In this document: positions 8,058 through 27,993 of the stretch, one piece after another
Layout: every line of letters starts with the position of its first letter
How positions within the stretch are numbered: position 1 is the stretch's first letter
Origin: Actinomycetales bacterium
GTDB taxonomy: Bacteria > Actinomycetota > Actinomycetes > Actinomycetales > Microbacteriaceae
DNA length: 64,000 nt
Direction of reading: 5' to 3'
NCBI GenBank assembly: GCA_038251725.1
Contig: JBBSBA010000006.1
Coordinates: 4,308-68,307, forward strand
Made by a program: the position numbers and the translations under genes
The notes under the pieces: model-generated
What the model saw: only the letters and a program-made list of their open reading frames with translations
Told to the model about the DNA's origin: nothing
Databases searched by the model: none

Positions 8058-10961
8058 TCATTGCCCCGGTGCTATCACCCGGCGAACGGTTCCGTCTGTC
8101 TCAAGCACCCAGCACTGCTCGACACCGGGACGGATCGGCGGCGGCAGGATCCGGCGCGCGCTGATCGCGCGGAATTCGGCGATGCTGCACCGGTCGAAGA
8201 CCACGGGCCCGCGGGATCGCGCGCTGCCGAGAACGGCCCAGTTCGCCTGCCAGGCATCGGGATCGCCGACGACCACGCTCCGCGCGCCGGCGTCCCCGAA
8301 TTCGATCGCGCCTGGCGCAGCCGACGCCGGCCGGCCGGCCGTCAGTTCAACCACCTCGCCGATCGGCGGTTCGAGGGCGCGAAGGCGTCGGGCGAACTCG
8401 CCGGGGCGCGTCGACACCACCGCGAGCATCCGTCCGACACCGGGATCAAACGGTGCGGCCGGAGCGGTCCGGTCATCGCGGCGGGTCACGCCATCGCCGA
8501 CGGCGACCTGGACTCTCGCCCCCTGCCACTCACCGGCTCCGGGACCGGCATTCGGCGAGAATCCCGCCACGGTTCCGCCGGCCAGAAGGTGGTCCTGTCT
8601 GGTCGCGAGCCGCAGGACGAGGCGGCAGTCGCACAGCGACGCGAGCGTCTGCAACGCCGGCGGCACCCGTCTCACGGCGAGCACGAGCTGGAGCCCGACC
8701 GATGAGCCCTCGCGCGCCAGTTCCACGAGACGGTCAACGAACGCCGGCTGGTACTCCTCAGCGAACCGTCCGGCGAGGGCATCGAGGTCGTCAAGCAGCA
8801 GGATCCGCGGCCCGGCGCGCCCGGCCCGAAGCCGTCCGACCGCCTCGTTCACGACATCCCACGCCGCATCGACGGCCGCTGCGCACCGCTCGACACCGGG
8901 GGCTGCGCCGAGGGTGCGCAGAAACTCGCTCTTTCCCGACCCCTGCGCCCCGATCACGAGGAGGTTGCCGTCCCGGGGCGGGTCGTAGCGCGCGATCCGC
9001 TGCCGCTGTTGCTCTGGCAGGTCGAGAAGGCCGAATGGGATGCCCCCGTCGCCATCCCGGTCGGCCAAGCCCACGCCCGTGGCCCAGAGGCCGGCGAGCG
9101 TGACGAGGGTGGGGAGCTCATCACACCAGGGGCGTCGGACGGAGCCGGCGGCGGACGCGTGTTGCCTGGCCACCCGCGCGATATCCTCCTCGGTCGCCCG
9201 CGCCGACTGCACGAGCCTCGGCGAGTGCCCACCCGCGGACAGCCAGGCGCGACCCGGGGCGTCACCGGGCAGCGCGAGCGCATCCGCGGTGCCGATCACC
9301 GCGACGCTGTCGGCGCGGTTGTTCACCCTCAGCGACAGGCGCAGCGTGGCGTTGGCGAGCACAGCATCCCGGATCGCGCCGGCGGGGCGCTGGGTGCAGA
9401 GCACGAGATGCAGCCCGAGCGAGCGTCCGCGCGCGGCGAGATCGGCGAACAGCTCATGCAACTCAGGAAAGTCGGTGGCCATGGCGGCGAACTCGTCGAC
9501 CACGATGACGAGTCGCGGCAGACGCACCGCCGGGGCGTCGATGCTGCGGGCGCCGGCCGATGCGATGGCCCGCTCCCGGAACCTCAGTTCGGCCCGCAGG
9601 CTCAGCATCGCGCGGTGCGCGGCCCGCTCGTCGAGGTCGGTGACGACTCCGACCACGTGTGGAAGCGGGCGAAGCGGCGCGAAGGACGATCCGCCCTTGA
9701 AGTCGACCAACAGGAATGTGACGACCGAGGGAGGGTGCGAGCTCGCCATCGCGAGCACCCAGCTCACCAGGAGTTCGCTCTTGCCGGCGCCCGTGGTGCC
9801 CCCGATGACCGCGTGTGGCCCGTCGGCGACGAGGTCGATCGCGAGCGGGCCGGCGCCCGACCGGGCGAACACGCACGCGAGGCCTCCGGACGCTCCCCCG
9901 CCCGGCTCGGCACGCGGGAGGGACTCGAAGTCACCCGTCCAGACGTCGGCTGTCAGCGCTGGGGAGATGCCGCGGGCGAGCGCCGCCGCCGCCAGCAGCC
10001 GGGCGAGTTCCCCGGCCTGCGCCGTCGAGACGAATTCCGCGACCACCGCCACCGGGACCTGGCCCTGGGGCCGACGGATGACGGTGGCCGACCCGCCGGC
10101 CCCGACGTGCACCACGACACGGCACTCCCCCGGCAGGTCCTCGGCCCGGTCGGCCAGCACAATGGCCGCCGTCTCGCCGCCGGACCTCCAGCGCACTCCG
10201 CCGCCACCGAGGGACTCGGCCTCGGCTGAGGCCTGCGGAAGCTCCCGAACCCACTCAAATCCACGGCCGATCGAGGGCGCGATCGTCGCGTCCTCCGGCG
10301 AAAGCAACTGGGCGAGCTGGAGGACGATGCCCCGGGCCACCGCACCGGCAAGGGCCGGCGGGCCGCAGATGCCGAGGCCAAGACGGGCATCCACCACTAT
10401 CGGCACGCCGCTGATCGTCGCGCAGTGCTCGCGCAGCCGCTCGAGTTCGACCGTGACGTGGTCCTCGGTCGCCGGACGTGACGAGGGCAGCCCCTCGATC
10501 CGCACCGAACTCGGCGCCACGCCGAGGCCGAGCCGCACCGGCACGCCGTCGGCGGCGCACCGGCGCCACCGTTCCGGGTCACGGGCGGAGAGCGCCCACA
10601 GGTCGGCGGCCCCCGGGGAGGCACGGGCGAGCCGAACCCGCTCCTTGGCATGAAGAGCGTCGACCGCGGTGCGGGTCGCGTCGATCTCCCGGGTGAATCG
10701 CGCGTGTTCCCGCCGTCGCAGCAGTCGCCCGTGCAGGCGGCCGTCGACAATGCTCCCCAGCGCGACAACCGGACCGAGCATGGCGAAGACGAGGGCGAAC
10801 GACGACTTCGTGAGCAGCCAGATGAGGAGCGCACCGAGCACCGGCGCCATGCTCGCCACCACGGGAAAGCTGTATGGGCGTGAGGCCTCTGGAGGCCGGG
10901 GGGCGGCGATCGGCGGGGGCGGACCGGCGTCGGGAGCGGGATTCGTCACACCACACGGCAC
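8058..10961 (-). CDS. FtsK/SpoIIIE-family membrane ATPase with EccC/EssC-like architecture
   Basis: Two N-terminal TM helices; ATPase 1 GGTTGAGKS / LVIVVDEF / HLVLCTQRP; ATPase 2 GAQGSGKS / LLLDDLD; degenerate third domain. Start is GTG 10961 or 10949. Confidence 0.85.
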   Translation of the reverse strand: MPCGVTNPAPDAGPPPPIAAPRPPEASRPYSFPVVASMAPVLGALLIWLLTKSSFALVFAMLGPVVALGSIVDGRLHGRLLRRREHARFTREIDATRTAVDALHAKERVRLARASPGAADLWALSARDPERWRRCAADGVPVRLGLGVAPSSVRIEGLPSSRPATEDHVTVELERLREHCATISGVPIVVDARLGLGICGPPALAGAVARGIVLQLAQLLSPEDATIAPSIGRGFEWVRELPQASAEAESLGGGGVRWRSGGETAAIVLADRAEDLPGECRVVVHVGAGGSATVIRRPQGQVPVAVVAEFVSTAQAGELARLLAAAALARGISPALTADVWTGDFESLPRAEPGGGASGGLACVFARSGAGPLAIDLVADGPHAVIGGTTGAGKSELLVSWVLAMASSHPPSVVTFLLVDFKGGSSFAPLRPLPHVVGVVTDLDERAAHRAMLSLRAELRFRERAIASAGARSIDAPAVRLPRLVIVVDEFAAMATDFPELHELFADLAARGRSLGLHLVLCTQRPAGAIRDAVLANATLRLSLRVNNRADSVAVIGTADALALPGDAPGRAWLSAGGHSPRLVQSARATEEDIARVARQHASAAGSVRRPWCDELPTLVTLAGLWATGVGLADRDGDGGIPFGLLDLPEQQRQRIARYDPPRDGNLLVIGAQGSGKSEFLRTLGAAPGVERCAAAVDAAWDVVNEAVGRLRAGRAGPRILLLDDLDALAGRFAEEYQPAFVDRLVELAREGSSVGLQLVLAVRRVPPALQTLASLCDCRLVLRLATRQDHLLAGGTVAGFSPNAGPGAGEWQGARVQVAVGDGVTRRDDRTAPAAPFDPGVGRMLAVVSTRPGEFARRLRALEPPIGEVVELTAGRPASAAPGAIEFGDAGARSVVVGDPDAWQANWAVLGSARSRGPVVFDRCSIAEFRAISARRILPPPIRPGVEQCWVLETDGTVRRVIAPGQ

Positions 10962-10964
10962 GCA

Positions 10965-10991
10965 GCCGCGGCCTCCTCGGGAGGCCGCGGC
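10965..10991. other. Perfect 12-bp hairpin immediately upstream of the FtsK-like gene
   Basis: GCCGCGGCCTCC-TCG-GGAGGCCGCGGC. Confidence 0.7.
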
Positions 10992-11082: not shown

Positions 11083-12012
11083 TCAGCTGACGATGAAGAA
11101 CTGCTCGCCGATCTCCACGCGTGTTCCGCGGCTCAGCCGGTACCGCCTGTTGGGCTGGCAGCGCACCGCGGCCGAATCGGGCTCGCGGATGATCGTGCCG
11201 TTTCCCGAGAACCGGTCCATGATCCAGAAAATGCCGCCATCCTGCCCGAACTCGAGGTGTACCTTCGAGACCGATCGGCTGGGGTCGAGCACGCGAACGA
11301 GTTGATCGAAATATTCGTTGGGCTCGGACCGCGGGTTGCGCCCGATGAGGCCCGTGCCATAGACGGTGAAGCTCTCCCCCGTGCTGAACTGCAGAACGAA
11401 GCGTTCTCCCGTGCGGCCAGCCCGAGAGATTCGTGTGGCCTCGAGGTCCGCGGATTCGTCGAACGGTGCGGCCCGTGACGCGCCGGACTCGACGAACACC
11501 GGACTCGCGGGCGCCGGACTCGCGGGCGCGGGACTGGTGGGCGCGGTCGGCGGCGGAGCCGCGAGCGGGATGACCGATTCGGGCATTGCGTTGGCGCTCC
11601 CGGACCGCGTGGCCGCCTCGAAGTCGGGCACGCGGTCGACCAGTCGCGGAATGGGAGCTTTCGGGATGGCGGGCGCCCGCGGCACCGGCACCGGCACCGG
11701 CACCGGCACCGGCACGATGATGGCGGTGTCCCGGGAACTCCCGAAGTCCTCGCTTGCCGCCCGCGAGACGAATCCGCACTCACCACAGAAGATATCGTCC
11801 TGTGCCATGGGGGCGCCGCACTGCGCGCAGGTCGGGATGCCGATGCCGTTGGCACCCGGCTCGACCAGACTGGGAACGGCGATCCCGGCGCCGTCCGGGT
11901 CAACGCCGGGACGAGAGTCCCCTCGATGCGAGTAGTCGGCGACCGCACGGCCGCACTCACCGCAGAAGAGCGCGCCGGCGGGCAGCTCGGTGCCGCAATA
12001 GGTGCACGTCAC
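11083..12012 (-). CDS. Double zinc-ribbon + Pro-rich linker + FHA domain protein
   Basis: CTYC..FCGECG and CAQC..FCGECG; FHA motifs IGRNP, SVSKVH, SGNGT. Confidence 0.88.
   Translation of the reverse strand: MTCTYCGTELPAGALFCGECGRAVADYSHRGDSRPGVDPDGAGIAVPSLVEPGANGIGIPTCAQCGAPMAQDDIFCGECGFVSRAASEDFGSSRDTAIIVPVPVPVPVPVPRAPAIPKAPIPRLVDRVPDFEAATRSGSANAMPESVIPLAAPPPTAPTSPAPASPAPASPVFVESGASRAAPFDESADLEATRISRAGRTGERFVLQFSTGESFTVYGTGLIGRNPRSEPNEYFDQLVRVLDPSRSVSKVHLEFGQDGGIFWIMDRFSGNGTIIREPDSAAVRCQPNRRYRLSRGTRVEIGEQFFIVS
11681..11716. repeat. Hexamer tandem repeat (GGCACC)5 + GGCACG encoding a Val-Pro run
   Basis: Six in-frame units read directly in the linker of the zinc-ribbon FHA gene. Confidence 0.9.
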
Positions 12013-12042: not shown

Positions 12043-14445
12043 CTATCTCTTGAACAGTCTCTTGACACTATATCCACCGAGTGAACGCAGCGAGATCGCC
12101 GCCTTGATGCGCTCCCACCGGCTGCGTGAGTCGCTCATCGAGTGCCGCAGGTCGGTGACCGCACGCCACACCTGGTCTGCCTCGTCCTGGCCTGGTTCGT
12201 CGGGCGAGAACACCGCGCGATCGGCCACCGCGGCCAGCACCAGCGACGGCAGCCCGCCGGCGGTCGCGGCCACCTCGGTTCGGGTGGGTGAGACCGGCGG
12301 CTCGAAACCGTGGTCGACGACGGCGTCGGCGAATTCCTGCCAGCCGCCGCTGATCCGCTGGATGGCGGTCGGCGCCCGTCGGCGCAGGATTCGTCTCCGG
12401 AGCTTCGCCGCGACGATCGCGAGAAAGGGCGCAAGCACGATGGCGACGGCCAGCGCGATCCAGGCCGAGACCTGGAGCACAACGAGAAGAACGGCAAGCA
12501 GTGGGTTGCCCTTCGCCGTCTGGTCCTGCGTGCTGTCTGGCGGGGGCTGCGCGTTGTGGCTGGCCGGCGGCTCCACCGGGGGCTGCACCGGCGACTGTGG
12601 GCGGGCGATCGACGTCGGCAACTGCGCCTGGTCGGGTGGGATGACGCGCACCGGCGGGGTCGGATCGATCGTGACCCAGCCGAAGCGAGCCGTATCCACC
12701 TCGATCCAGGCCGAGATGTCCTTGCCGAGCACCTCGGTCGGACCCTGCGTGTTCACCGCGGGCACGAATCCGAAGACGACCCGGGCGGGGAAGCCGAGCT
12801 GACGCGCCATGAGGGCGGCGGTAACCGAGTACTGCTCCTGGTCTCCGATCATGACCTGGTCGGTGAGCAGTTGGGTGATGCGGTCGGCCGCATGGCCGGA
12901 CCGGCTCGCCGGCTGCTGCGGGTCGACACCATGGCTGATGTAGCCGGTGCGCTTGAGGGCGGCGATCATGGCGGTCAGGCGGGCGCCCGGGCTCGTCTCC
13001 GAGCGGGTCCACGCATCGAGCGTCGACGTGAGCTGGTCGGGCAGGGCCGCCGTCCGCGGCACGCTTGACGTGCCCGGTCGGAGGGTCGCGAGCTGGTTCT
13101 CGGTGGGCTGGCGCGGCACCAGGGCGTCGAGCGTGTAATTGTCACCGGAGTGCAGTTGCTGCACGACGGCGGCAGTGCCGCTCGTGTCGTTGTAGTAGAA
13201 CGAATCGCGAAGTGCCGACGCATCCGATCCCGAGAACGTCACGCTCTCGAACTTGCCGATGGTGGGCAGCCAGACGCCGGTGTAGTCGCCGACGGTCACA
13301 TGCAGCGACACGGTCGAGCCGACCGTGCCGGATTGGTTGAAGGTCGACGGCACCCGGGTGAACGAACCCGATTCGCTTGAGACCGCCGCGCTGCCGACCG
13401 AGTAGACGATGCCGTCGTAGGTGTCGAGGGTCGCGATGCGGATGCGGTCCCCGTTCGACAGTCCGCTCACCGTGAGCATGGTGGCATTCGCCTGAGCCGG
13501 CTCCTCGTAGAAACGGAACCCGCTGAGCGGGCTCGCGTACACCCGCGGGTTGAAAGGCTGCACGATGGCGTCACGGAGCACTTGCCGGTGCGCCGTTGGG
13601 GGCAGGGCGATCGTCGCTCCGACCGCGCCTCCGGCGGCGAGCAGCACAATGAGCCCGGCTCCGAGAATCGTGCGGAATCCGGCGAAGCTCGTGTCCGCTG
13701 CGGTTTCGAGTGGTCGCCCGTCGGCGTCGAGGGCCCGGGCGGCGAGAATCCGGATTGACGCGCGCCGACGGTACCAGCGCCGCCACACCAGCCAGCCGAG
13801 CGAGGTCGCGAGCAGCCCGAGCGAGAGTTCGAGCGGCCAGGTCGCCGTGTCGGGCCCGAAGATGAGCGCGGTGATGAACAGGGCGATCGGGGCGAGGACG
13901 CCGAGCTCGCCCCAGCGCGCGCGAAGCCCGACCGACAGTCCGACGACGGTCGTGACGAGCACGAGGATGAAGGCGGGCACGAGAAGCGACTGGTAGGAAC
14001 CGACCGGGAGGGTGATCGTCAGCAGTTGCTTCCAGCTGAGCGCGGTCGCCCGCAGCAGGTCGAGTTCGCCCTGCACCGTCGGAAGCACGCCGTAGATCGC
14101 CTCGTCCGGCACCGCGAGCGGCACGCCGAACAGGAGGTAGACCACGGCGGTCGCCAGTGTGAGGGTGAGGGTCGACCATCGCTTGATGGCCCCGAAGAGG
14201 GCGACGGCCGAGCCGAGCAGGATGCTTGCCGCGATCAGCATCACGAGCCGGGAACCCTGGTAAATGGGCCAGAGCGCGGCGGACGCGACCGCGATGGTGA
14301 GCCACGCCAACGCCGTGGTGGCGGCGGCGAACCCGGGCGAGAGTGGCGCAACACCGCGGGCGCGTCTCCGCGCGCGGCGGCGCACCTCTACGCGGGAGCG
14401 GCGCTTGCTGTCGATGCGTCGAACGCTGTCGGATCCGCTACTCAT
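12043..14445 (-). CDS. Multi-TM transglutaminase-like domain protein (TgpA-like), predicted catalytically degenerate
   Basis: About 7 N-terminal TM helices; core GDQEQY..MARQLGFPARVVFGF..SAWIEV..GWVTIDPTP; Pro-rich linker and a further TM helix. Confidence 0.85.
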   Translation of the reverse strand: MSSGSDSVRRIDSKRRSRVEVRRRARRRARGVAPLSPGFAAATTALAWLTIAVASAALWPIYQGSRLVMLIAASILLGSAVALFGAIKRWSTLTLTLATAVVYLLFGVPLAVPDEAIYGVLPTVQGELDLLRATALSWKQLLTITLPVGSYQSLLVPAFILVLVTTVVGLSVGLRARWGELGVLAPIALFITALIFGPDTATWPLELSLGLLATSLGWLVWRRWYRRRASIRILAARALDADGRPLETAADTSFAGFRTILGAGLIVLLAAGGAVGATIALPPTAHRQVLRDAIVQPFNPRVYASPLSGFRFYEEPAQANATMLTVSGLSNGDRIRIATLDTYDGIVYSVGSAAVSSESGSFTRVPSTFNQSGTVGSTVSLHVTVGDYTGVWLPTIGKFESVTFSGSDASALRDSFYYNDTSGTAAVVQQLHSGDNYTLDALVPRQPTENQLATLRPGTSSVPRTAALPDQLTSTLDAWTRSETSPGARLTAMIAALKRTGYISHGVDPQQPASRSGHAADRITQLLTDQVMIGDQEQYSVTAALMARQLGFPARVVFGFVPAVNTQGPTEVLGKDISAWIEVDTARFGWVTIDPTPPVRVIPPDQAQLPTSIARPQSPVQPPVEPPASHNAQPPPDSTQDQTAKGNPLLAVLLVVLQVSAWIALAVAIVLAPFLAIVAAKLRRRILRRRAPTAIQRISGGWQEFADAVVDHGFEPPVSPTRTEVAATAGGLPSLVLAAVADRAVFSPDEPGQDEADQVWRAVTDLRHSMSDSRSRWERIKAAISLRSLGGYSVKRLFKR

Positions 14446-15866
14446 ACTGCCGCCGACCGGGCAAGAGACTTCTGCAGTTCTTCGAGATACCCGATGGTCA
14501 ACACGCTCAGTCCGGCCACGCGGCGCAGCCCAGGCACGATATCCGGATCGCAGACGACGGCCACGACCTCGACTCCGGGCGGGAACTTGGTCGATGCCGC
14601 CCGCAGTTCCGTAACGGTCGTGAGCGATCCGCAGATGAGAAAGGCCACGGAGATGCCGGTGACCTCGTCGGCGGCCACGCGCGCGACATCCGTCATCCCG
14701 AGCGCCGACTCCTCGTGCTCGACGACGGCGAGGTCATCGAGCAGGCGCGTCCGGGTGAGTGTGTTGAGATGGCGCACGGCAAGCACCTTGCGTTTGGCGA
14801 ACTCCGCCGTCTTCTCGCCCACCACGACGGCCACGTTGCGGGCATCCTGGATGGCACGGGCCCCGAGCGAACCGGCAACGCTCACCGCCATTTCGAACTC
14901 GTCTTCCGTGGCATAGTCCGAAGAGGCGAGGCTCAGCGCGATCATGAGGTGGCTCCGCCGGGTCTCTTCGAATTGGCGCACCATATACCGGCCGGTCTTC
15001 GCGGTGCTCTTCCAGTGGATGAACCGACGCTCGTCCCCGGGAATGTATTCGCGCAGCGCATGGAAGGACACATCGCTGTTCGACAGGTCCCGGGTGGGGT
15101 TGCCCTCGAGGTCGCGCACGAAGCCGGTGCTGGTCGAGGGGATTCCGATGGTGCGGGGGTGGATGAACAGTTCCGTGGACTCGGTCCAGACCAGCTCACG
15201 GCGGACCAGGCCGACCGGGTCGGCACGCACCGTGCGAACCGGGCCGATCGAGAGAATCCCCCGGCGGGCCGTGGGAACCGGGAATTCGTGGCTGAAGGTC
15301 GCGCCCCGCGAGAGCCCTGGCATGGCGATCTCGGTCAGCCCGCGCCCGATCGGCACCTCAACCTTCACTCCGATGAGGCGATGACGGGTGGGATTCTGCA
15401 CGGTGATCAGCCCGGTGGCCCGCTCGCCGACGACCACGCGGCTGTGCGGAACGCTGAGCTGGATGAGGAAGGCATTCCGGCCGATGAGGTAGATCGCGGC
15501 GACAACGACCAGCACGGTTCCGGCCCAGGCCACGGCCACGAGCTCGACCCAGCCGAGGATGTAGCCGCACAGGAACGCCAACGGCACGATCACGAGCATC
15601 GCCCAGCCGAGCGGGGTGACCACGGTAGAAACGCGACCGAGCCACTGGCCGGTCAATCCGCCGATCGCCCGGGCGAAGCGGACGAGAATGATGATGGCGT
15701 CGGCGAGGAACCCGGTGCGGGCGCCGACGATGCGGGTGCGCGCGTTGGTGAGCCCCGTGGTGGCCGTTCTGTGCGGGGAGGTCGCCGAGGCACGCGACGG
15801 GTGTGCGGACTGGCCTCGCGCCGCGCCGGACGCCGCCGGGGGCACCGACCCGCTCCGATTGCTCAC
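14442..15866 (-). CDS. DUF58 domain protein with N-terminal TM helices
   Basis: FHALREYIPGDERRFIHWKSTAK, MVRQFE; directly follows MoxR; start and stop overlap both neighbours. Confidence 0.9.
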   Translation of the reverse strand: MSNRSGSVPPAASGAARGQSAHPSRASATSPHRTATTGLTNARTRIVGARTGFLADAIIILVRFARAIGGLTGQWLGRVSTVVTPLGWAMLVIVPLAFLCGYILGWVELVAVAWAGTVLVVVAAIYLIGRNAFLIQLSVPHSRVVVGERATGLITVQNPTRHRLIGVKVEVPIGRGLTEIAMPGLSRGATFSHEFPVPTARRGILSIGPVRTVRADPVGLVRRELVWTESTELFIHPRTIGIPSTSTGFVRDLEGNPTRDLSNSDVSFHALREYIPGDERRFIHWKSTAKTGRYMVRQFEETRRSHLMIALSLASSDYATEDEFEMAVSVAGSLGARAIQDARNVAVVVGEKTAEFAKRKVLAVRHLNTLTRTRLLDDLAVVEHEESALGMTDVARVAADEVTGISVAFLICGSLTTVTELRAASTKFPPGVEVVAVVCDPDIVPGLRRVAGLSVLTIGYLEELQKSLARSAAV

Positions 15867-19800: not shown

Positions 19801-22765
19801 TGCCGCCGGGGCGTATCCGCACCAGGTCAGGCACGGCCACGGGATTGCGGGCGACGTCGAGCTTCGGGCTGATGCCGACCCGCACGATGCCGGTGGCACG
19901 GGCCCCGAGGCTGTCGATCACCGTGTAGGTGAAGGAGTCGGTGCCGGCGGAGTAGCTTCCGGCGAGATAGTCGATGTAGTCCGCCCCCACCGTCGTGACA
20001 GAGCCCTTGTCCGGGTTCGTCGCCTGCCCGAGCAACTGCACCGAGTCGCCATCGGGATCGATACCGGTGAGCGGAATCACGATGCGCACCGTCTCGCCGG
20101 CGATCACACGCGCGGTCACCGTCGTCGGCACCGGCGGGTTGTTGGTGGCCACGACGGGCTCACGGACGGCGATCTTCACCTGGGCCTGGGCGACTTGGCC
20201 GTGGGTGTCCGAGACCGAGTACACGGCGGTGAAGTCGCCGGTCTTGTCCGGCGCGAGGTAGCGGAGCACGTTTCCGGAGGCGAACAGCAGTCCGGAGCCG
20301 GCCGGCAGCGGGGTCGACAGCTTCGGGTTGAGCGTGAGCTGCTCGCCATTCGGCTGCACGTCGTTATCGAGAACCGGGATGTCGATCGCGTCGCCTACGC
20401 GCACGGTCACGCTGTCGTCGTTCGCGATCGGGGGTTGGAACTGGGTCGGCGTCGGGATCTCCACCACGGTGACGACACCCTCGGCGTCGGCGAGGCCGTT
20501 GCTGATCCGATAGTTGAAGGTGACCGGCCCGGACTTCAACGGTGCGGCGAGGGTGACCCGGATCGCCCGTTGCTCGATCACCTGGGCGGTCACGCCGGAG
20601 TTCGGGGCAAGATTGTAGACGCCGGTGACGAGAAGCACCCCGCCGGCCGGATCGATGTCAGTCGATGCGACATCCACCGTCTGGGTGCTGAGCGACTGCA
20701 CGAAGATCGTCTTCGGAATGGTGATCGGCTTGGTGTTCGGGTCCGGTTGCGCCGCGACGTCGATGCGCACGATCCCGTTCGCGGTCTGGTCCCCATCGTG
20801 CACCACGAAGTCGATGTAGTGCGTGCCCACCTGGTCGCTCGTGAACCGGAAGGTGCCAGCCTCGAGGCTGGGGATGATCGTCACGCCGCTCTTGGCCGGC
20901 ACGCTCGCGAGACGCAGGTTTCCGGTGCCGCCGCGCACGTGGTCGAGCGGCCGCACCGTGACGTCCTGTCCGGAGTAGGCCTGCACCACGAACGGATCGG
21001 GGATGAGAGGCACCTGACCGGCCAGCGTTACCCTGACCGTGAGGGCACCGGTGCCCTCGGCCGTGCCGTCGGAGACGACGAGCGCCACCGTTCTCAGTCC
21101 CGTCGTCGTTGCACCGTCCGTGTAGACGACCGTGCCCTCCGGCTTGTAGCTTGCCGTGTTGGGCGCGGCGGTCGACGCGGAGGTCAGGTAAAAGGGGTCG
21201 CCATCCGGGTCGACCCAGTCGCCAAGCACAGAGGTGGTCACCCGGCCGCCGGCCGCGACGACGGCCCTGGTCTGTCGCACCTGGTACGGAGGCGAGTTCT
21301 GCTGGGGGGTTCGCACCGTCACGGTGACCTTGGCGCTCGCCGTGCCGCCGCGGCCATCGCTGATCGAGTAGCCGAACGTGACGGTGCCGCTCACCGTCGG
21401 CTTCAGCGTGATCTGCAGCTGCTGGCTGTTGTTGATCAGGTCGATCCGACCCACCGACGGGTCGATGGGGGTGAAGTCGGTGATGACGATAACGTCGCCG
21501 TTCGGGTCGTAGTCGTTGAGCAACACCGGAAGAACGCTCGTGCGGCCCGGGCGCGCGCCGAAGGCGTCATCGACCGCCACGGGGGGCTGCTGGATCTTCT
21601 CGTATTCCGGAGGCGTGTCCTCGTTGTTCTGCGCGACCAGGCGATGGTCTTTTCGCACGGTGATCAGATCCGACCAGTTATCTATCAACTGACCCGACTG
21701 TTGCACGGCCCAGATGCCACCATCATGCGGGTCGCTCAGCACGACCCGGTCGCCGTTCGAGGCGAAGGTGAGGTCGGATGCCGTGGCTGGCATCGAGGCA
21801 AGAGCGAGTTGGGCTCCGGCGGCCGTACCGCATTGGCGCCAGGCCGTCCCGATCGACCAGGCCGCGAACGTGCACCCTCCCATCGCGCTCGGCGCGGCGG
21901 CGATCCCGCCCTGTCCGCTGACGATGCGCACGGGGCTGCCACCGCCGAGCGGCACCCGGAGAAGCCCCGTCGCGTCGGCGATCAGAACGCCGTCACCGCT
22001 CGTCGATGGCTGTTGCAGAACCGGGTTGCTCCCGACCGGGATGAATGAGGCGAGCTTCACCGTCCCCGCGTCGGTGAGCATGGTGCGACCCACCGAGTCG
22101 AAGAGTACCCAGTGTCCGCCGACGGAGGTGATCGTCACGTCGCGGCGCGCTCCGCCGATCCGCGCGGAGGTGGTGTCGGCCAGGGCATTGGAATGGGCCG
22201 CATCGACCCGGTAGACCTGGCGGGTATCCGCCGAATACCCGAAGAGCATGCCGTCGGGCGTCACGCTCGTGATGGCGTTCGCGCCGAGGTTGAGGGTCGG
22301 CTGCGCCTGCGCATTGAAGATGGGCAACTGACTGAGCGGCACGATCCAGACCTCGCCGGTGCCGCCGGCGGCGATCACGACATTGTCGCCGGCAAGCGAG
22401 AGCTGTGGATCCTGCGGAGGCAGGGGAACGCTGTCGAGCACCTTCGAAGTAGCCGGATCGACGATGTCGACCTTGCTGTCGGTGCGATCGAAGAGCAGCA
22501 CCGTCGCGCCGCGCTGGATCACACGAATGTCGGCGCCGCTCGAGGCGACGACCGTGTTGAGCGCGAGCACCTGGGTGTTGGCGCGACCGATCACCTGCGA
22601 TGAGCCGTTCGCCACCCAGACCGAACCATCGTTGAGATCGAGTCGCTGCGCGGTATAGCCGGTCGAGACGATGGCGACGGTGGCGATGAGGGCGGCAATG
22701 ACCGAACCGCTCGTCGCCGTGGCGATGAGCGACCGGTGGCGGGAAATCCACTGTGTGATCGTCAT
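16871..22765 (-). CDS. Giant (~1964 aa) N-terminally anchored surface protein with tandem Ig/cadherin-like domains and C-terminal fibronectin type III domains
   Basis: Start re-picked at ATG 22765. Hydrophobic N-terminal helix; repeated PPxAxDD and DPxGD motifs (NDYDPNGD, DWVDPDGD, GIDPDGD, NDSDPDGG); Fn3-like segments (LTVRWTP..ITGY, LRISWNA, IALSWAG..ISGY); no LPXTG seen. Confidence 0.88.
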   Translation of the reverse strand: MTITQWISRHRSLIATATSGSVIAALIATVAIVSTGYTAQRLDLNDGSVWVANGSSQVIGRANTQVLALNTVVASSGADIRVIQRGATVLLFDRTDSKVDIVDPATSKVLDSVPLPPQDPQLSLAGDNVVIAAGGTGEVWIVPLSQLPIFNAQAQPTLNLGANAITSVTPDGMLFGYSADTRQVYRVDAAHSNALADTTSARIGGARRDVTITSVGGHWVLFDSVGRTMLTDAGTVKLASFIPVGSNPVLQQPSTSGDGVLIADATGLLRVPLGGGSPVRIVSGQGGIAAAPSAMGGCTFAAWSIGTAWRQCGTAAGAQLALASMPATASDLTFASNGDRVVLSDPHDGGIWAVQQSGQLIDNWSDLITVRKDHRLVAQNNEDTPPEYEKIQQPPVAVDDAFGARPGRTSVLPVLLNDYDPNGDVIVITDFTPIDPSVGRIDLINNSQQLQITLKPTVSGTVTFGYSISDGRGGTASAKVTVTVRTPQQNSPPYQVRQTRAVVAAGGRVTTSVLGDWVDPDGDPFYLTSASTAAPNTASYKPEGTVVYTDGATTTGLRTVALVVSDGTAEGTGALTVRVTLAGQVPLIPDPFVVQAYSGQDVTVRPLDHVRGGTGNLRLASVPAKSGVTIIPSLEAGTFRFTSDQVGTHYIDFVVHDGDQTANGIVRIDVAAQPDPNTKPITIPKTIFVQSLSTQTVDVASTDIDPAGGVLLVTGVYNLAPNSGVTAQVIEQRAIRVTLAAPLKSGPVTFNYRISNGLADAEGVVTVVEIPTPTQFQPPIANDDSVTVRVGDAIDIPVLDNDVQPNGEQLTLNPKLSTPLPAGSGLLFASGNVLRYLAPDKTGDFTAVYSVSDTHGQVAQAQVKIAVREPVVATNNPPVPTTVTARVIAGETVRIVIPLTGIDPDGDSVQLLGQATNPDKGSVTTVGADYIDYLAGSYSAGTDSFTYTVIDSLGARATGIVRVGISPKLDVARNPVAVPDLVRIRPGGTVSVQVLANDSDPDGGTLTITKVEPNAKDIIAKIEGDVIRVTPPTKPGSYGLIYTIENTFGGTSSAFLTVVVSADAPRAFPVVRDTVLTLTDVLGRDSLDVNVLNNVFFADGNVSTLAVSVLPGYSTDAGVTANKRIHVTVKKTSQIIPFAVANPDDASVVSYAFVWVPGLNDALPQLNRKAVPLTVASESTLTIDLNDYVIAVEGKHVRLTDTASVQATHSDGSNLMVNDHTLQFTSANKYFGPASISFSVTDGASATDPNGRKATLVLPIKVTPRQNQPPEFVGGIIDFEPGTSRELDLLKLTNYPYPKDIAELAYTVLTPLPTGFSYTLTGQKLTLRANDSAVRNSSTAIVLGVKDKITTGQSGKIVLNVVASSRPLAEPAPDSVIIPRGQSATVNVLANDEATNPFPGKPLRVMAIRGLDGGAIPAGLTITPSADNSRLTVTASASAKPVDTTLQYEVADATGDPARYVWGSVTVSVQDRPDPVTAVDVTSFGDHTLTVRWTPGAANNSPITGYDVLMHSGAGVLVSTTACAGAVCAVVTPGNGPSNGVRLQIVAKNAIGSSDAVEFPSTVWSDVIPPAPSGLGAAPLDGGLRISWNAVTTPAAGSAVNNYVLITGGSASNIAPSVCSAVTCTTDVFGLTNGQPVSISVSPRNSALPSLAAWNAAVANGIPAGRPISAGQPTANSANAAIALSWAGAFSDNGRAISGYTAIAYTGAMPTCANPNPGGSTSQDMGTATATTFSGLSNDSSYSLLVLATNSIGCTSSPAVVAHTSPGVVTAISTSGPTKSGSTFDYALTAASIGARLSGSYTFYYRLQGNQVPATEHGPIAFGALLTGDGLQYGHDISVEVRACRTFPDGAIVCQSNWSASFHVGMPVDPRIDTPAFTPVTNPTNPQDESGTFTWSRWPSGSYENVQYSCGSGSNETPIKADTTQGGQCLAIVPPNTTPLLTIIVTANGGQTYRIRYDNAGNVQ

Positions 22766-22775
22766 TTTTCGCTCA

Positions 22776-24230
22776 TCACCCCCCGAAGGCGACACACTTC
22801 TCTGCGCTCGGTGGACCGGTTCTGCCCTGACGGTTGACCGCCACGGTGATGCAGACCCGATCACCGGCCTTGGCGTCCTCGGCGAAGTAGCTGGAGGAGA
22901 CCTGCAGCGCCGTGCGGCCATCGCTCGTGGTGACCTGGTAGGTGTCCTGGGCCTTCAGGCCGGGATTACTCCAGCTGAACTTGATCGAACCGCTGGTGAC
23001 GGTCGCGGCGACGTTCGTCACCTGGGGGATGCCGTCGGAATTGGCCCGGATGAGCACGACGGTCACCGTCGCTCCCAGCCCGATCACGAGCAAGGCGCTC
23101 GCGACGAGGCCCCAGGCGAGCAGCCGCATGCCCCGGCCGTGCGTGCCCGGTCGCGTTCCGCTGCTCTGCAGAGCGCCCTTGACGGCCATCCCCTTCTGCG
23201 CCGGCTGGCCGGCGGTGTCTCGCATCAGCGTGCCGATCGGCGTGTACGTGGACGGGACGGCGCGGCGGCGCCGGCGCCCGCGTGCGGTCGGCACGACTCC
23301 GCCGACACCACGGATGCGCGTGCGGTCCTCGAGGTCGGCGACGGTGGCCAGGGCCCAGTCGTCCATCGCCACCTCGATCGGCGTCTGTGGCACGGCGAGT
23401 TCGGTCTCGATGGACTGCAGCTCGCGCACGAGTTCGAGCACGCTCGCCGGGCGGTTCTCCGGTTTGCGCGACATGGCCTGGGCCAACATCCGCTCGAGAC
23501 TCGGCGGGACGTCGGAACGCCCGATCGGCTGGGGCCGTGCCCGGTTGATGCGGGAGATGAGGTCCACCGAGTTGTTCGGCTGGCCCGGAATCTCGAAGGG
23601 CGAGCGGCCGGCGAGCAGTGAATAGACCGTGGCGGCGAACGACCACACCTCCGACGCGATGCTGCCCGGCGTCTCATCCATCAGCACCTCCGGTGCCGAC
23701 CATGGGATGGAGAGCCCGACCGATTCGTCGGTTTCGGCCCCGCTCAGGGTCGACGCGATACCGAAGTCGGAGAGCACCGGATGCCCGTATGCCGTGAGCA
23801 GGATATTTGACGGCTTGATGTCGCGGTGCAGCACTCCGGCGCGGTGCGCGGTCTCGATAGCGCTGCCGATCTTCACGGCGATGCGCAGCACCTCCGGCAC
23901 CGGTATGCGTTCGCGGCGGTAGCGTTCGCTGAGCGATGACGAACAGAGTTCCATCACGAGGTAGGGGCGGCCGTCGGACGACACGCTGGCCTGGTAGACG
24001 GTGAGAATCGACGGATGCGAACTCAGCTGCGCCATGAGGTTGGCCTCGGACTGGAACATCTGGCGAACCTGGTCATTGACCACCTCGCTCAGCAAGACCT
24101 TGACGGCGACCTGCCGGCGCGGCATGTTCTGTTCGTAGAGGAAGACGTCGGCGAACCCACCGGAGCCGAGCACATGGATGGTCGAGAATCCGGGCAGCAC
24201 GGGAGGAGTCGACGGCAATCGACGCGCCAT
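22776..24230 (-). CDS. Hanks-type transmembrane Ser/Thr protein kinase with a small extracellular Fn3-like domain
   Basis: LGSGGFADV, VAVKVL, HRDIKPSNIL, DFG, WSAPE; TM helix LLAWGLVASALLVIGLG; strong SD AGGAGGAG before ATG 24230. Confidence 0.94.
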   Translation of the reverse strand: MARRLPSTPPVLPGFSTIHVLGSGGFADVFLYEQNMPRRQVAVKVLLSEVVNDQVRQMFQSEANLMAQLSSHPSILTVYQASVSSDGRPYLVMELCSSSLSERYRRERIPVPEVLRIAVKIGSAIETAHRAGVLHRDIKPSNILLTAYGHPVLSDFGIASTLSGAETDESVGLSIPWSAPEVLMDETPGSIASEVWSFAATVYSLLAGRSPFEIPGQPNNSVDLISRINRARPQPIGRSDVPPSLERMLAQAMSRKPENRPASVLELVRELQSIETELAVPQTPIEVAMDDWALATVADLEDRTRIRGVGGVVPTARGRRRRRAVPSTYTPIGTLMRDTAGQPAQKGMAVKGALQSSGTRPGTHGRGMRLLAWGLVASALLVIGLGATVTVVLIRANSDGIPQVTNVAATVTSGSIKFSWSNPGLKAQDTYQVTTSDGRTALQVSSSYFAEDAKAGDRVCITVAVNRQGRTGPPSAEKCVAFGG

Positions 24231-24300
24231 GGCTCCTCCTTCGTCGACGCCGGTGGGGGCCGATCGGTTCCCGTGCCGCGTCGGATTGCCCCAGTGTTCT

Positions 24301-24306
24301 ATTCTA
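24301..24306 (-). promoter_or_regulatory. Candidate -10 box (TAGAAT) of an internal promoter upstream of the kinase
   Basis: TAGAAT on the minus strand in the AT-rich 162-bp gap between PP2C and kinase; no clear -35. Confidence 0.35.
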
Positions 24307-24392
24307 GACACGCCTTGAATTCGGCCGGTGGAACAAATCTGCTGGTCAGGACCGTTTTTTACCCCCCTTCGGGGGGCAGTAATATTGCGCCA

Positions 24393-25232
24393 CTATTGCG
24401 CAAGGGTGGGGCCGGGGCGTGGAATGGTGTTCTCGAACTCCCCGGGGCCGGAACTCTCGAGCACGTCGATGACGACGGTCGTGATGTTGTCCCGTCCGCC
24501 GCCCTCGAGCGCCGCGTTCACGAGGGCGCGGGCGGTGTCTTGCGCCGAGAGGCCCCAGGCGAGCACACGGCGGATGCCCCCGGCATCCACCTCCTTCGTC
24601 AGTCCGTCGGAACAGAGCAGCAGTCGCATGCCCGCGCGCACCGGCACCACCCAGTAGTCCGGATCCGCCGCGACGTTGAAGCCGACCGCGCGGGTGATCA
24701 CGTTGCTGTCCGGATGGTTTTCGGCGTCTTCTGCCCGGATCACGCCGGCGTCGACGAGCTCCTGAACGACCGAGTGGTCAACCGTGACCTGCGCGAGAGT
24801 CTCGCGGTCGAACAGGTAGACCCGGGAATCGCCCACGTTGAAGACGGTCCAGAACGGTTCGTCGTATTGCAGGGAGAGGGCGACGCCGGTGACGGTCGTG
24901 CCGACCCCGAGTTGCTTCTCGTCCGCCGCGAGTCCGATGTCGATGGTTGCGGAGCGCAGGCCGTTCTCGATGGTGTCGGCATCGGCGAAATCGCCGGTCA
25001 CCGCCTCGTCGAGACGAGAGACGACCGCAGCGCTGGCGACGTCACCGGCCGAGTGGCCACCCATTCCATCGGCCACGGCGAAAATAGGCGGTCGCGCGAG
25101 AAAACTGTCTTCGTTGTGGGCACGCCGACGGCCGATGTCGGTCGCCGCCCCCCAGGACAGCACCAGCCGGGCATCCGGGTCGCCGGGTACGGCCACGGGG
25201 TATTCCGCGACGCCTTGGCCGATCTCGGTCAC
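24393..25232 (-). CDS. PP2C/PPM-family Ser/Thr phosphatase (soluble)
   Basis: TDIGRRRAHNED, VADGMGGH, NVGDSRVY, LCSDGL, GGRDNIT; start probably GTG 25232. Confidence 0.93.
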   Translation of the reverse strand: MTEIGQGVAEYPVAVPGDPDARLVLSWGAATDIGRRRAHNEDSFLARPPIFAVADGMGGHSAGDVASAAVVSRLDEAVTGDFADADTIENGLRSATIDIGLAADEKQLGVGTTVTGVALSLQYDEPFWTVFNVGDSRVYLFDRETLAQVTVDHSVVQELVDAGVIRAEDAENHPDSNVITRAVGFNVAADPDYWVVPVRAGMRLLLCSDGLTKEVDAGGIRRVLAWGLSAQDTARALVNAALEGGGRDNITTVVIDVLESSGPGEFENTIPRPGPTLAQ

Positions 25233-25271
25233 GAAAGCCTCTCGCCTAGCGGGTGGGTGCACTGCATTGGT

Positions 25272-25946
25272 CTACACCACCCGCTCGATGGGGAGGATCT
25301 CGACGGTGTTGCCGTCACCAATATCCACTATCGTTCCGGCGGAAACCACGAGTGACTCACCCTGGCGCAGTTTTTGCACCGAGGATCCAGGGATCTTGAC
25401 GACAGTGCCGTTGGTCGAGCGCAGGTCCGTGACGATCACCGTGGATCCCTGCTGGCGCAATTCGACGTGCGTGCTCGACACCTCGCGGCCAGGCGACGGA
25501 ACCCACACCAGTCGAGGAAACGGTGCGATGGTTATTCGTGGAAGCACCGGCTTGCGTCCGATCAGCGCCGGGGCATCGAGCGGAATGGGCTCCTGCCGGT
25601 TGACCCGGATGCGGTGCCACGGCACCGTGAACGGCACTGGATCGTTCGCGACCCCCGCTCGCGCGGCCACCGGGCGCTCTTCGAATCGCGGGGGTCCCCG
25701 CGGAGGTTCGACGAGGACGTGCGGCACCTCCGCCGCGGACCTCTCACGGAGCTCGCCCGGTTCGGGAAGCGGGAGCGGTTCGGGACGGGCCGGCGCCTCG
25801 TCGAGGTCAGCCGGGCGGGCCCGGATGATCGTGTCGGCCTCGAGATCATGCGGCTCTGCGGCTCCCCCCGTGTCCTGGCCGGGGTGCGCCCGGATGACGG
25901 TGTCGTCGCCATCGTGCGGTTGCATGTCCCCATTGTCTCGCGACAC
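25272..25946 (-). CDS. FHA domain protein with an acidic/Pro-rich N-terminus
   Basis: IGRKP, EVSSTH, DLRSTNGT; N-terminus carries repeated DxTIIR-like motifs. Confidence 0.87.
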   Translation of the reverse strand: MSRDNGDMQPHDGDDTVIRAHPGQDTGGAAEPHDLEADTIIRARPADLDEAPARPEPLPLPEPGELRERSAAEVPHVLVEPPRGPPRFEERPVAARAGVANDPVPFTVPWHRIRVNRQEPIPLDAPALIGRKPVLPRITIAPFPRLVWVPSPGREVSSTHVELRQQGSTVIVTDLRSTNGTVVKIPGSSVQKLRQGESLVVSAGTIVDIGDGNTVEILPIERVV

Positions 25947-27991: not shown

Positions 27992-27993
27992 CC

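What the first reader, a model, noticed from the sequence alone, without database searches (positions are those of the whole stretch)
8058..25946. Nine-gene phospho-signalling / MoxR / giant-adhesin / EccC-like ATPase cluster: candidate uncharacterised cell-surface assembly or secretion system
Seen: nine co-oriented genes, FHA - PP2C - TM Ser/Thr kinase - 1964-aa Ig/Fn3 protein - MoxR - DUF58 - TGase-like - Zn-ribbon FHA - FtsK ATPase. Kinase through TGase-like gene have gaps of 36 nt or less, and MoxR-DUF58-TGase overlap. Established: kinase-fn3-AAA-duf58-tgm is the core order of the bifidobacterial PFNA operon, whose mechanism is unresolved; MoxR ATPases act as chaperones/remodellers with VWA- or DUF58-type partners. 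Inference: the cluster builds and displays the giant protein under reversible pThr control (kinase, phosphatase, two FHA readers) and is linked to a T7SS-type motor. I know of no functional description of this extended version in Microbacteriaceae.
Basis: partly seen in the sequence, partly recalled or inferred. Interest (0 to 1): 0.88.

Follow-up and report, generated by a model that had tools for sequence, protein, structure and literature searches.

The report
Esr/PFNA surface-sensor operon with short EccC
The nine genes are real and conserved, but they are a Microbacteriaceae copy of an already described actinobacterial surface-sensing phospho-relay (the "Esr" pathway of a September 2026 preprint, known in bifidobacteria as the "PFNA operon"), here joined to a shortened type VII-like ATPase, so this is not an unknown secretion system.

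Summary
Observation confirmed. Nine co-directional minus-strand genes (8058-25946) encode FHA, PP2C, a TM Ser/Thr kinase, a 1964-aa beta-propeller/Ig/Fn3 protein, MoxR, DUF58, a TgpA-type transglutaminase-like protein, a Zn-ribbon-FHA protein and an EccC-like ATPase.

A survey of 58 homologous loci in more than 15 families of the order shows the same gene set, shuffled into at least four orders. An EccC-like gene lies on the same strand within 20 kb in 26 of 58 (45%).

This matches the Esr (epibiont sensing and response) pathway of Schaalia odontolytica (Wang et al., bioRxiv 2026-09-09). There, the giant protein is the sensor, the TGase-like protein retains it, and the kinase phosphorylates an FHA output protein. 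Forty per cent of those loci adjoin esx genes. The bifidobacterial PFNA operon is the reduced form.

So the giant protein is most likely the input of the pThr relay, not its cargo.

Local particulars:
- The EccC-like protein is a short form (967 aa, two P-loops, no Ubl/FHA, no third ATPase). It is the genome's only EccC-like gene.
- The genome has one distant WXG100 gene and no EccB, YukD or YukC.
- The TGase-like protein lacks the catalytic Cys, as do 58 of 59 orthologues.

Verdict: new member of a known kind, modest interest.

The parts
25272..25946 (-). [quoted passage not shown] It is the counterpart of the FHA protein encoded just upstream of the kinase in other families (EsrG-like output or adaptor).
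   Evidence: Pfam FHA 3.4e-07. GR...S-x-x-H...NG pThr-binding motifs are present. tblastn finds counterparts next to the kinase in 38 of 58 loci.
24393..25262 (-). PP2C Ser/Thr phosphatase (EsrF / PrpC equivalent).
   Evidence: PP2C_2 1.9e-09; NF033484 Stp1-type 4e-60. Present in 46 of 58 loci.
24231..24392 (-). 162-nt PP2C-kinase spacer with a CCCCCC-GAA-GGGGGG hairpin, an AT-rich stretch and a strong RBS (GAAGGAGGAG) before the ATG at 24230. It is a possible internal promoter or processing site.
   Evidence: Sequence read. The consensus promoter scan found none. PFNA has an internal start site, but before prpC.
22776..24230 (-). Single-pass membrane Ser/Thr kinase (EsrE / Pkb2 equivalent) with a roughly 90-aa extracellular Ig/Fn3-like tail. 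The ORF is open up to 24311.
   Evidence: Pkinase 4.8e-41; weak Kre9_KNH Ig-like hit at aa 414-467. TM at aa 403-421. VAVK, HRD, DFG and APE motifs are intact. Present in 54 of 58 loci.
16871..22765 (-). EsrA / FN3-protein equivalent, 1964 aa. It has an N-terminal hydrophobic signal or anchor (aa 14-32), a beta-propeller (aa ~45-362 = nt 21680-22633), a stalk of Big_9/cadherin-like Ig repeats, and Fn3 domains with a variable C-terminal region.
   Evidence: Pfam Big_9 1.6e-71 in 8 stretches, Cadherin_5/4, fn3. AlphaFold model has pLDDT above 90 over aa 50-370. Foldseek top hits are beta-propellers: 1l0q YVTN propeller+PKD of an S-layer protein (9e-12), BamB, WD40. Among close relatives the most divergent parts are aa 201-400 and 1500-1964.
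15863..16834 (-). MoxR-family AAA+ ATPase.
   Evidence: AAA_3 4.7e-61, AAA_lid_2 1.7e-26, bpMoxR 2.7e-08. Walker A GTGKT and Walker B ADEIN are intact.
14442..15866 (-). DUF58 (vWA-like) protein with N-terminal TM helices. It is the partner of MoxR and overlaps both neighbours by 4 nt.
   Evidence: DUF58 1.3e-12. TM segments at aa 46-128. The DxSxS MIDAS motif is not conserved across 57 orthologues.
12043..14445 (-). EsrD / Tgm equivalent. It is a TgpA-type polytopic membrane protein: N-terminal TM bundle, extracytoplasmic transglutaminase-like domain, one TM and a cytoplasmic tail. The catalytic Cys is replaced by Gln536 (12838-12840) and the His by Ser578 (12712-12714). Asp594 is kept.
   Evidence: Transglut_core 9.4e-12. 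The alignment to P. aeruginosa TgpA structure 6g49 places Q and S at the Cys and His positions. In 59 orthologues the Cys position is D30, S10, E9, G4, A4, Q1, C1. TM map.
11083..12012 (-). [quoted passage not shown] It is the positional counterpart of the Zn-ribbon-RDD-FHA gene that follows the TGase-like gene in other families.
   Evidence: Zn_Ribbon_1 3.9e-11, DZR 2.1e-10, FHA 1.7e-06. Its position after the TGase-like gene is conserved.
8058..10961 (-). Short EccC/EssC-like ATPase, 967 aa. It has two TM helices, a stalk/DUF region, two P-loop ATPase domains (Walker A at aa 388 and 671, Walker B at 485 and 720) and a 146-aa divergent tail. It lacks the Ubl+FHA head and the third ATPase domain of the 1465-1550-aa form found in other families.
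   Evidence: FtsK_SpoIIIE 7.8e-32; TIGR03928 EssC 6.3e-76; TIGR03924 EccCa 1.7e-71. Alignment to the 1490-aa form covers its residues 236-1235 only. Size classes are shown. A full-length orthologue is present in all 18 same-genus genomes searched.

Best explanation
The cluster is an Esr/PFNA-type cell-surface sensing pathway coupled to an EccC-like ATPase.

Proposed mechanism:
1. The 1964-aa protein (EsrA type) is exported by its own N-terminal signal. It forms an extracellular filament with a beta-propeller, an Ig stalk and variable ends, and acts as the sensor.
2. The TgpA-like membrane protein (EsrD type) holds it at the surface through its extracytoplasmic pseudo-transglutaminase domain.
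3. The membrane-anchored DUF58 protein and the MoxR AAA+ ATPase assemble or remodel this complex.
4. Ligand engagement activates the single-pass Ser/Thr kinase. The kinase phosphorylates threonines in the disordered regions of the two FHA proteins. The PP2C phosphatase resets the signal.
5. Outputs are transcriptional, possibly through the zinc-ribbon FHA protein, and post-translational gating of the adjacent short EccC-like ATPase.

What is shown here: gene content, domains, topology, conservation and linkage.

What is shown only in Schaalia odontolytica (preprint): the sensor role of EsrA, EsrD-dependent retention, EsrA-dependent Thr phosphorylation of the FHA output protein, and the effect on Esx secretion.

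What is inferred: transfer of these roles to this Microbacteriaceae genome, the non-covalent nature of retention, and the job of MoxR-DUF58.
For: - Domains of all nine proteins are confirmed.
- The giant protein has a beta-propeller followed by an Ig-repeat filament, as described for EsrA.
- The same nine-family gene set recurs in 58 loci across the order in at least four gene orders. These include Actinomycetaceae, Bifidobacterium, Demequina, Microbacterium, Cellulomonas and Arthrobacter.
- An EccC-like gene lies on the same strand within 20 kb in 26 of 58 loci (45%). The preprint's survey gives 40% of 3502 loci.
- In other families the EccC-like protein carries an N-terminal FHA domain. This matches the EsrG-EccC fusions reported.
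- The kinase, PP2C, FHA and MoxR motifs are intact.
- Published experiments support the mechanism (PMC13622651).
Against: - There is no experiment or transcript data for this organism.
- The EccC-like protein is truncated. The genome lacks EccB, YukD-type and YukC-type parts, so a working Esx output is uncertain.
- EsrD lacks the Cys nucleophile. The anchoring chemistry proposed in the preprint cannot be taken over as written.
- Whether this environmental bacterium meets epibionts at all is unknown.
Confidence: 0.75

Rival explanations
1. First reader's model. The cluster is an assembly, display or secretion machine for the giant protein. MoxR-DUF58-TGase fold or cross-link it, and the EccC-like motor exports it under pThr control.
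For: - The genes are tightly packed, with overlaps.
- In S. odontolytica, loss of the TGase-like gene releases the giant protein into the supernatant. So part of the cluster does serve its display.
- An EccC-like gene is adjacent and conserved in the genus.
Against: - The giant protein has its own N-terminal hydrophobic export signal.
- 32 of 58 homologous loci, including all Bifidobacterium ones, have no EccC-like gene within 20 kb yet keep the giant gene.
- The TGase-like protein lacks its nucleophile.
- Deletion of esrA abolishes signalling, which places it upstream of the kinase.
Confidence: 0.1
2. The pathway is a general envelope or host-signal sensor, as proposed for PFNA in bifidobacteria (cytokine binding by the Fn3 part). 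It would have no relation to epibionts or to secretion. The EccC-like gene would then be an unrelated but frequently hitch-hiking neighbour.
For: - PFNA papers report TNF-alpha binding by Fn3 fragments.
- The source organism groups with Glaciihabitans-like environmental Microbacteriaceae, for which no epibiont is known.
- More than half of the loci lack EccC.
Against: - Cytokine sensing makes no sense outside animal hosts, yet the system is spread across soil and freshwater Actinomycetales.
- The EccC-like gene is always co-directional with the cluster. In the long form it carries an FHA domain of its own, which argues for functional coupling.
Confidence: 0.1
3. The short EccC-like protein is a decaying remnant of the long form and has no function in this lineage.
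For: - It has lost the Ubl+FHA head and the third ATPase domain.
- The genome has no EccB, YukD or YukC.
- One relative (G048) has only a fragmentary match.
Against: - A full-length open frame with both Walker A and B pairs intact is kept in all 18 same-genus genomes searched at 45-62% identity.
- The same form occurs in several other Microbacteriaceae genera. That indicates purifying selection.
Confidence: 0.05

Closest known systems
Esr (epibiont sensing and response) pathway of Schaalia odontolytica F0309, Esr1 and the Esx-linked Esr2 (Wang, Colautti ... Mougous, bioRxiv 2026-09-09, PMC13622651)
   Same: It has the same parts. These are a giant secreted protein with an N-terminal beta-propeller and Ig repeats, MoxR, a vWA/DUF58 protein, a transglutaminase-like membrane protein, a Ser/Thr kinase, a PP2C phosphatase and FHA output proteins, including a zinc-finger variant. 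An adjacent EccC is also present.
   Different: - The gene order differs (FHA-PP2C-kinase placed first).
- FHA1 lacks the pseudophosphatase-like head of EsrG1.
- The EccC-like protein is a short two-ATPase form without an FHA domain, and no other esx genes lie beside it.
- The host is an environmental Microbacteriaceae.
- Nothing has been tested experimentally here.
PFNA operon of Bifidobacterium (pkb2-fn3-aaa-atp-duf58-tgm-prpC-hyp-fha; Nezametdinova, Dyachkova, Danilenko and co-workers; PMC6803598, PMC8430577)
   Same: The core order kinase-giant Fn3 protein-MoxR-DUF58-TGase is identical. A phosphatase and an FHA gene also belong to it. Homology to a named Bifidobacterium locus was confirmed.
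   Different: - PFNA has no EccC-like gene.
- Its phosphatase and FHA genes lie downstream, not upstream.
- It is interpreted as a host-cytokine sensor.
- It is described as species-specific to bifidobacteria, whereas the system is order-wide.
Firmicutes T7SSb EssC / actinobacterial ESX EccC
   Same: It has two N-terminal TM helices followed by FtsK-type P-loop domains. The best family matches are EssC and EccCa/b. FHA domains are associated with the ATPase.
   Different: - It has only two P-loop domains and no third, substrate-binding ATPase domain.
- The FHA domain is on a separate protein.
- There is no EccB, EccD/YukD or EssB/YukC in the genome.
- Only one WXG100 gene exists, on another contig.
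TgpA (PA2873) of Pseudomonas aeruginosa, an inner-membrane transglutaminase (PDB 6g49)
   Same: The architecture is the same: a TgpA_N/DUF3488 TM bundle, an extracytoplasmic transglutaminase core, one TM and a cytoplasmic tail. The sequence alignment spans the core.
   Different: The catalytic Cys and His are replaced (Gln536, Ser578). The Cys is absent from 58 of 59 Esr-type orthologues.
MoxR-vWA-beta-propeller ternary conflict systems (Kaur, Burroughs, Iyer, Aravind, eLife 2020, PMC7159879)
   Same: It shares a MoxR ATPase, a vWA-like partner and a beta-propeller-bearing sensor, with kinase and FHA signalling. There is a weak bpMoxR match (2.7e-08).
   Different: - The propeller sits on a giant extracellular filament.
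- No toxin or effector domains are present.
- The preprint states that these clusters were not detected in that study.

Membership tests
Esr pathway (PMC13622651) | EsrA: an exported protein with an N-terminal beta-propeller followed by a long series of Ig-like repeats | tested here: met
   N-terminal hydrophobic segment at aa 14-32. The model of aa 45-362 has pLDDT above 90 and all top Foldseek hits are propellers. Big_9 and cadherin-like repeats are present.
Esr pathway (PMC13622651) | MoxR AAA+ ATPase plus a vWA-type partner encoded beside EsrA | tested here: met
   AAA_3 4.7e-61 and DUF58 1.3e-12, with overlapping genes. The MIDAS motif is not conserved.
Esr pathway (PMC13622651) | EsrD: a transglutaminase-like membrane protein | tested here: met
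   Transglut_core 9.4e-12 and TgpA-type topology. The nucleophile Cys is absent here and also in Actinomyces oris and Schaalia suimastitidis orthologues.
Esr pathway (PMC13622651) | Ser/Thr kinase, PP2C phosphatase and an FHA-domain output protein with a disordered phospho-acceptor region | tested here: met
   Pkinase, PP2C and two FHA proteins with low-complexity Thr-containing regions. Phosphorylation itself is not testable here.
Esr pathway (PMC13622651) | Homology to the Actinomycetaceae loci | tested here: met
   tblastn of all nine proteins hits the co-linear genes of Actinomycetaceae genomes G156 and G207 (family identified). Metagenomic locus L201 has the same set. S. odontolytica F0309 itself was not available.
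Esr pathway (PMC13622651) | Activation by Patescibacteria epibionts and control of Esx and surface genes | not testable with these tools
   This needs co-culture, phosphoproteomics and transcriptomics.
PFNA operon of Bifidobacterium | Core gene order kinase-fn3 protein-AAA ATPase-DUF58-tgm | tested here: met
   The window order at 24311 down to 12043 matches the order given in PMC8430577. The homologous core is present in a named Bifidobacterium locus, L178.
PFNA operon of Bifidobacterium | Confined to the genus Bifidobacterium ('species-specific' cluster) | tested here: not met
   The window groups with Glaciihabitans, family Microbacteriaceae. The cluster occurs in more than 15 families of the order.
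Canonical type VII secretion system (ESX / T7SSa) | EccC with three ATPase domains, together with EccB, EccD, mycosin and adjacent WXG100 pairs | tested here: not met
   Two P-loops only. No EccB and no YukD-type domain. One WXG100 gene lies on another contig beside groEL. Mycosin was not searched.
T7SSb (Firmicutes type) | EssC with N-terminal FHA domains, plus EssB/YukC, EsaB/YukD and others | tested here: not met
   No FHA domain in the 967-aa protein. No YukC or YukD in the genome. The long form in other families does carry Ubl+FHA.
Active TgpA-type transglutaminase or cysteine protease | Cys-His-Asp catalytic triad | tested here: not met
   Aligned to 6g49, Cys is replaced by Gln536 and His by Ser578, and Asp594 is kept. 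In the family, 58 of 59 orthologues lack Cys.
MoxR-vWA-beta-propeller ternary conflict systems (Aravind) | bpMoxR-type ATPase, vWA protein and beta-propeller protein with linked effector domains | tested here: inconclusive
   The bpMoxR hit is weak (2.7e-08) beside a far stronger AAA_3 hit. A propeller is present, but on a giant filament. No effector domain was found, and there are no PADLOC system hits.

The most novel reading that the evidence does not exclude
In Glaciihabitans-type Microbacteriaceae the Esr relay ends in a stripped-down, two-ATPase EccC-like protein. It is the genome's only type VII-like part and is gated in trans by a zinc-ribbon FHA protein. This would be either a minimal pThr-gated exporter for the lone WXG100 protein, or an ATPase repurposed for signalling and not for secretion. 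In addition, the 'transglutaminase' EsrD is a pseudo-enzyme across the whole family. The sensor filament would then be held non-covalently, and the MoxR-DUF58 ATPase step, not cross-linking, would be the mechanically important event.
Probability: 0.25. Interest if true: 0.55.

Novelty: new member of a known kind. Interest (0 to 1): 0.3.

Why it matters
The finding itself is explained. It adds a Microbacteriaceae example to a pathway published two months before this scan.

Three points may be useful to people working on that pathway:
1. The Esr pathway and the bifidobacterial PFNA operon are the same system. The preprint does not mention PFNA or Bifidobacterium. PFNA is presented in its literature as species-specific to bifidobacteria.
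2. The transglutaminase-like component lacks its nucleophile in nearly all orthologues, including Actinomycetaceae ones. This argues against the proposed Cys-dependent covalent anchoring of the sensor.
3. A clade of Microbacteriaceae couples the pathway to a short EccC-like ATPase in a genome without other recognisable type VII parts. That offers a simple case for asking what the FHA-EccC link does.

Tried and rejected
- The search for related loci with a 24-sequence EsrD alignment failed because no stretch was conserved enough. A six-sequence alignment worked.
- I guessed that families f15 and f7 were Actinomycetaceae. Protein searches showed Demequina and 'Bifidobacteriaceae bacterium' MAGs. 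f3 proved to be Actinomycetaceae. S. odontolytica F0309 itself could not be retrieved, and the preprint's supplements are not held.
- PADLOC gave only domain-level kinase and FtsK/HerA hits, and no defence system.
- The sigma-70 promoter scan found nothing. The three terminator-like hits are fewer than in shuffles (mean 6.2), so none can be told from chance.
- A six-frame search of the genome for the AesB motif GYVNP found nothing.
- Literature searches for an additional paper on FHA-EccC, kinase and MoxR clusters gave only the preprint and T7SSb structural papers.
- I considered and rejected chance adjacency of the EccC-like gene, because it is conserved and always co-directional.
- I considered and rejected a prophage or mobile island, because composition is uniform and the cluster is conserved across the genus.

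Full report
**1. The observation**

ORF listing and Pfam/NCBIfam scans confirm nine co-directional minus-strand genes between 8058 and 25946. They are:
- FHA1 (25272-25946)
- PP2C (24393-25262)
- a single-pass membrane Ser/Thr kinase (22776-24311, probably starting at 24230)
- a 1964-aa Big_9/cadherin-like/fn3 protein (16871-22765)
- MoxR (15863-16834)
- DUF58 (14442-15866)
- a transglutaminase-like polytopic membrane protein (12043-14445)
- a double-zinc-ribbon FHA protein (11083-12012)
- an FtsK/EccC-like ATPase (8058-10961)

MoxR/DUF58 and DUF58/TGase overlap by 4 nt.

The cluster is bounded downstream by a convergent alanine dehydrogenase gene. Upstream lies a co-directional aldehyde dehydrogenase only 16 nt away. 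That gene is not a conserved neighbour.

The PP2C-kinase spacer is 162 nt if the kinase starts at the ATG behind GAAGGAGGAG. It holds a GC hairpin and an AT-rich stretch. The consensus promoter scan was empty.

**2. Conservation and anatomy across relatives**

The 967-aa EccC-like protein has a full-length orthologue in all 18 same-genus genomes searched, at 45-62% identity.

The TGase-like protein has homologues in 131 of 201 genomes sampled from the order. I fetched 40 kb around 60 of these hits and searched them with the nine window proteins. Fifty-eight are the same system. Two are plain MoxR-DUF58-TGase triads.

Counts among the 58 loci:

| Component | Loci |
|---|---|
| Giant gene | 56 |
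| MoxR | 56 |
| DUF58 | 58 |
| TGase-like gene | 58 |
| Kinase | 54 |
| PP2C | 46 |
| At least one FHA gene | 40 |
| EccC-like gene, same strand, within 20 kb | 26 (45%) |

The gene order varies:
- (A) FHA-PP2C-kinase-giant-MoxR-DUF58-TGase-ZnFHA-EccC, as in the window.
- (B) giant-MoxR-DUF58-TGase-(Zn-RDD-FHA)-PP2C-FHA-kinase-x-EccC.
- (C) PP2C-FHA-kinase-giant-MoxR-DUF58-TGase(-EccC).
- (D) kinase-giant-MoxR-DUF58-TGase-PP2C, with no EccC.

Shuffling with retention of the set is strong evidence for one functional unit.

Named loci place the window next to Glaciihabitans (Microbacteriaceae). They show order A in Glaciihabitans, Rhodoglobus, Leifsonella, Agreia, Salinibacterium, Cryobacterium and Galbitalea. 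They show order B in Microbacterium, Herbiconiux, Subtercola and others.

Other families were identified as follows:
- Demequina
- 'Bifidobacteriaceae bacterium' MAGs
- Actinomycetaceae
- Bifidobacterium (order D)
- Cellulomonas

**3. What it is**

A full-text search led to a bioRxiv preprint of 9 September 2026: Wang, Colautti ... [quoted passage not shown] It describes exactly this gene set as the Esr (epibiont sensing and response) pathway of Schaalia odontolytica. Its components and findings are:
- EsrA is a secreted filament of Ig-like domains with an N-terminal beta-propeller.
- MoxR and vWA proteins accompany it.
- Loss of the transglutaminase-like EsrD releases EsrA into the supernatant.
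- EsrE is the kinase and EsrF the phosphatase.
- EsrG, the FHA output protein, is phosphorylated on a threonine in its disordered region only when EsrA is present and the epibiont is sensed.
- The survey found 3502 pathways, mostly in Actinomycetales and Propionibacteriales. Of these, 40% lie next to esx genes.
- EsrG has 13 domain configurations, including zinc fingers and fusions to EccC.

My independent count of 45% EccC linkage agrees with this. So do the Ubl-FHA-EccC proteins of about 1490 aa that I read in other families.

I tested the one EsrA feature that Pfam does not show. An AlphaFold model of residues 1-460, built on 41 orthologues, has pLDDT above 90 for residues 50-370. Its Foldseek hits are all beta-propellers (1l0q, BamB, WD40).

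The bifidobacterial PFNA operon (pkb2-fn3-aaa-atp-duf58-tgm-prpC-hyp-fha) is order D of the same system. The preprint does not mention PFNA or Bifidobacterium.

Earlier agents of this scan reached the same identification for sister loci in other genomes. I saw those notes after finding the preprint.

**4. How it most likely works here**

By homology, the giant protein is the extracellular sensor and the input of the relay. It is not the relay's cargo.

It carries its own N-terminal hydrophobic export signal. More than half of the homologous loci lack any EccC-like gene.

The kinase keeps VAVK, HRD, DFG and APE. The PP2C keeps its metal-binding aspartates. Both FHA domains keep GR, SxxH and NG. 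MoxR keeps its Walker motifs.

FHA1 corresponds to the FHA protein encoded beside the kinase in other families, but it lacks any N-terminal globular domain. ZnFHA corresponds to the gene that always follows the TGase-like gene.

The likely flow is sensor, then kinase, then pThr on the FHA proteins. Outputs would be transcriptional (possibly through the zinc ribbons) and on the EccC-like ATPase. PP2C would reset the signal. All of this is inference by homology. Nothing was measured in this organism.

**5. What is particular to this window**

(a) The EccC-like protein is a short form. Aligned to the 1490-aa form, it covers only residues 236-1235. It therefore lacks the Ubl+FHA head and the third ATPase domain. 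Both remaining Walker A/B pairs are intact. Short forms of 930-1085 aa occur only in order-A lineages and always sit just after ZnFHA.

(b) It is the only EccC-like gene in this 100%-complete, 146-contig assembly. Several congeners also have a 1507-aa EccC next to WXG100 pairs. This genome has one WXG100 gene, beside groEL on contig 13. It has no EccB, YukD or YukC match.

(c) The TGase-like protein is a TgpA-family protein. Its catalytic Cys and His are replaced by Gln536 and Ser578 in the alignment to PDB 6g49. Across 59 orthologues the Cys position is Asp, Ser, Glu, Gly, Ala or Gln, and Cys only once. Actinomyces oris and Schaalia suimastitidis orthologues have Asp there. Cys-dependent transglutamination, which the preprint hypothesised for anchoring EsrA, is therefore unlikely for the family. 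Retention may be non-covalent.

(d) The DUF58 protein lacks a conserved MIDAS motif.

(e) Among close relatives, the giant protein diverges most in the second half of the propeller and in the C-terminal 460 residues.

**6. Rivals**

- A host-cytokine sensor (the PFNA reading) cannot apply to environmental Microbacteriaceae.
- A decaying EccC remnant is unlikely, given conservation of an intact frame and motifs across the genus and several genera.
- PADLOC shows no known defence system.

**7. Verdict**

This is a new member of a known kind. Interest is modest. The residual value lies in the PFNA = Esr equivalence, the pseudo-transglutaminase, and the orphan short EccC-like ATPase.

Limits:
- No S. 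odontolytica F0309 sequences were available.
- No experiments were done.

Noticed in passing
own genome, contig C13:41483-41773 (outside the window): A single 96-aa WXG100 gene lies just downstream of groEL and next to a two-component system. It is the only WXG100 match in the genome, and a gene of this kind is present in all 12 same-genus genomes searched with this family.
   Followed up: partly
window 24231-24392: The PP2C-kinase spacer holds a perfect CCCCCC-GAA-GGGGGG hairpin followed by an A-run and an AT-rich stretch. It may be an internal promoter, an attenuator or a processing site.
   Followed up: partly
G125:C4, G069:C1, G048:C1 (loci L017-L022): Same-family genomes of genus g15 carry a second Esr-type cluster without EccC. 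About 15 kb downstream lies a further plain MoxR-DUF58(-TGase) triad.
   Followed up: no
L138 and L141 (Labedella endophytica, L. phragmitis): Two Esr sensor modules lie in tandem. A second kinase-giant gene pair starts about 2-3 kb after the first TGase-like gene.
   Followed up: no
G205:C1 (L039/L040), joined coordinates 21335-39499: Downstream of the TGase-like gene there is about 18 kb of sequence matching the giant Ig-repeat protein. This suggests one or more extra giant repeat proteins at this locus.
   Followed up: no
window 14442-15866 and 57 orthologues: The DUF58/vWA-like partner of MoxR has no conserved DxSxS MIDAS motif. The first position is Asp or Ser and the others vary. Metal-dependent ligand binding is therefore doubtful.
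   Followed up: partly
G026:C12 (L052), joined coordinates 26798-27502; L201 18123-18893: In order-B loci a conserved gene of 234-256 aa without a Pfam hit sits between the kinase and the FHA-EccC gene. It is absent from the window's arrangement.
   Followed up: no
window 27485-32100: Several long minus-strand ORFs upstream of the aldehyde dehydrogenase gene (27970-29637, 29558-31138, 30754-32100) gave no Pfam hit. In this high-GC DNA, some may be shadow frames of genes on the other strand.
   Followed up: no
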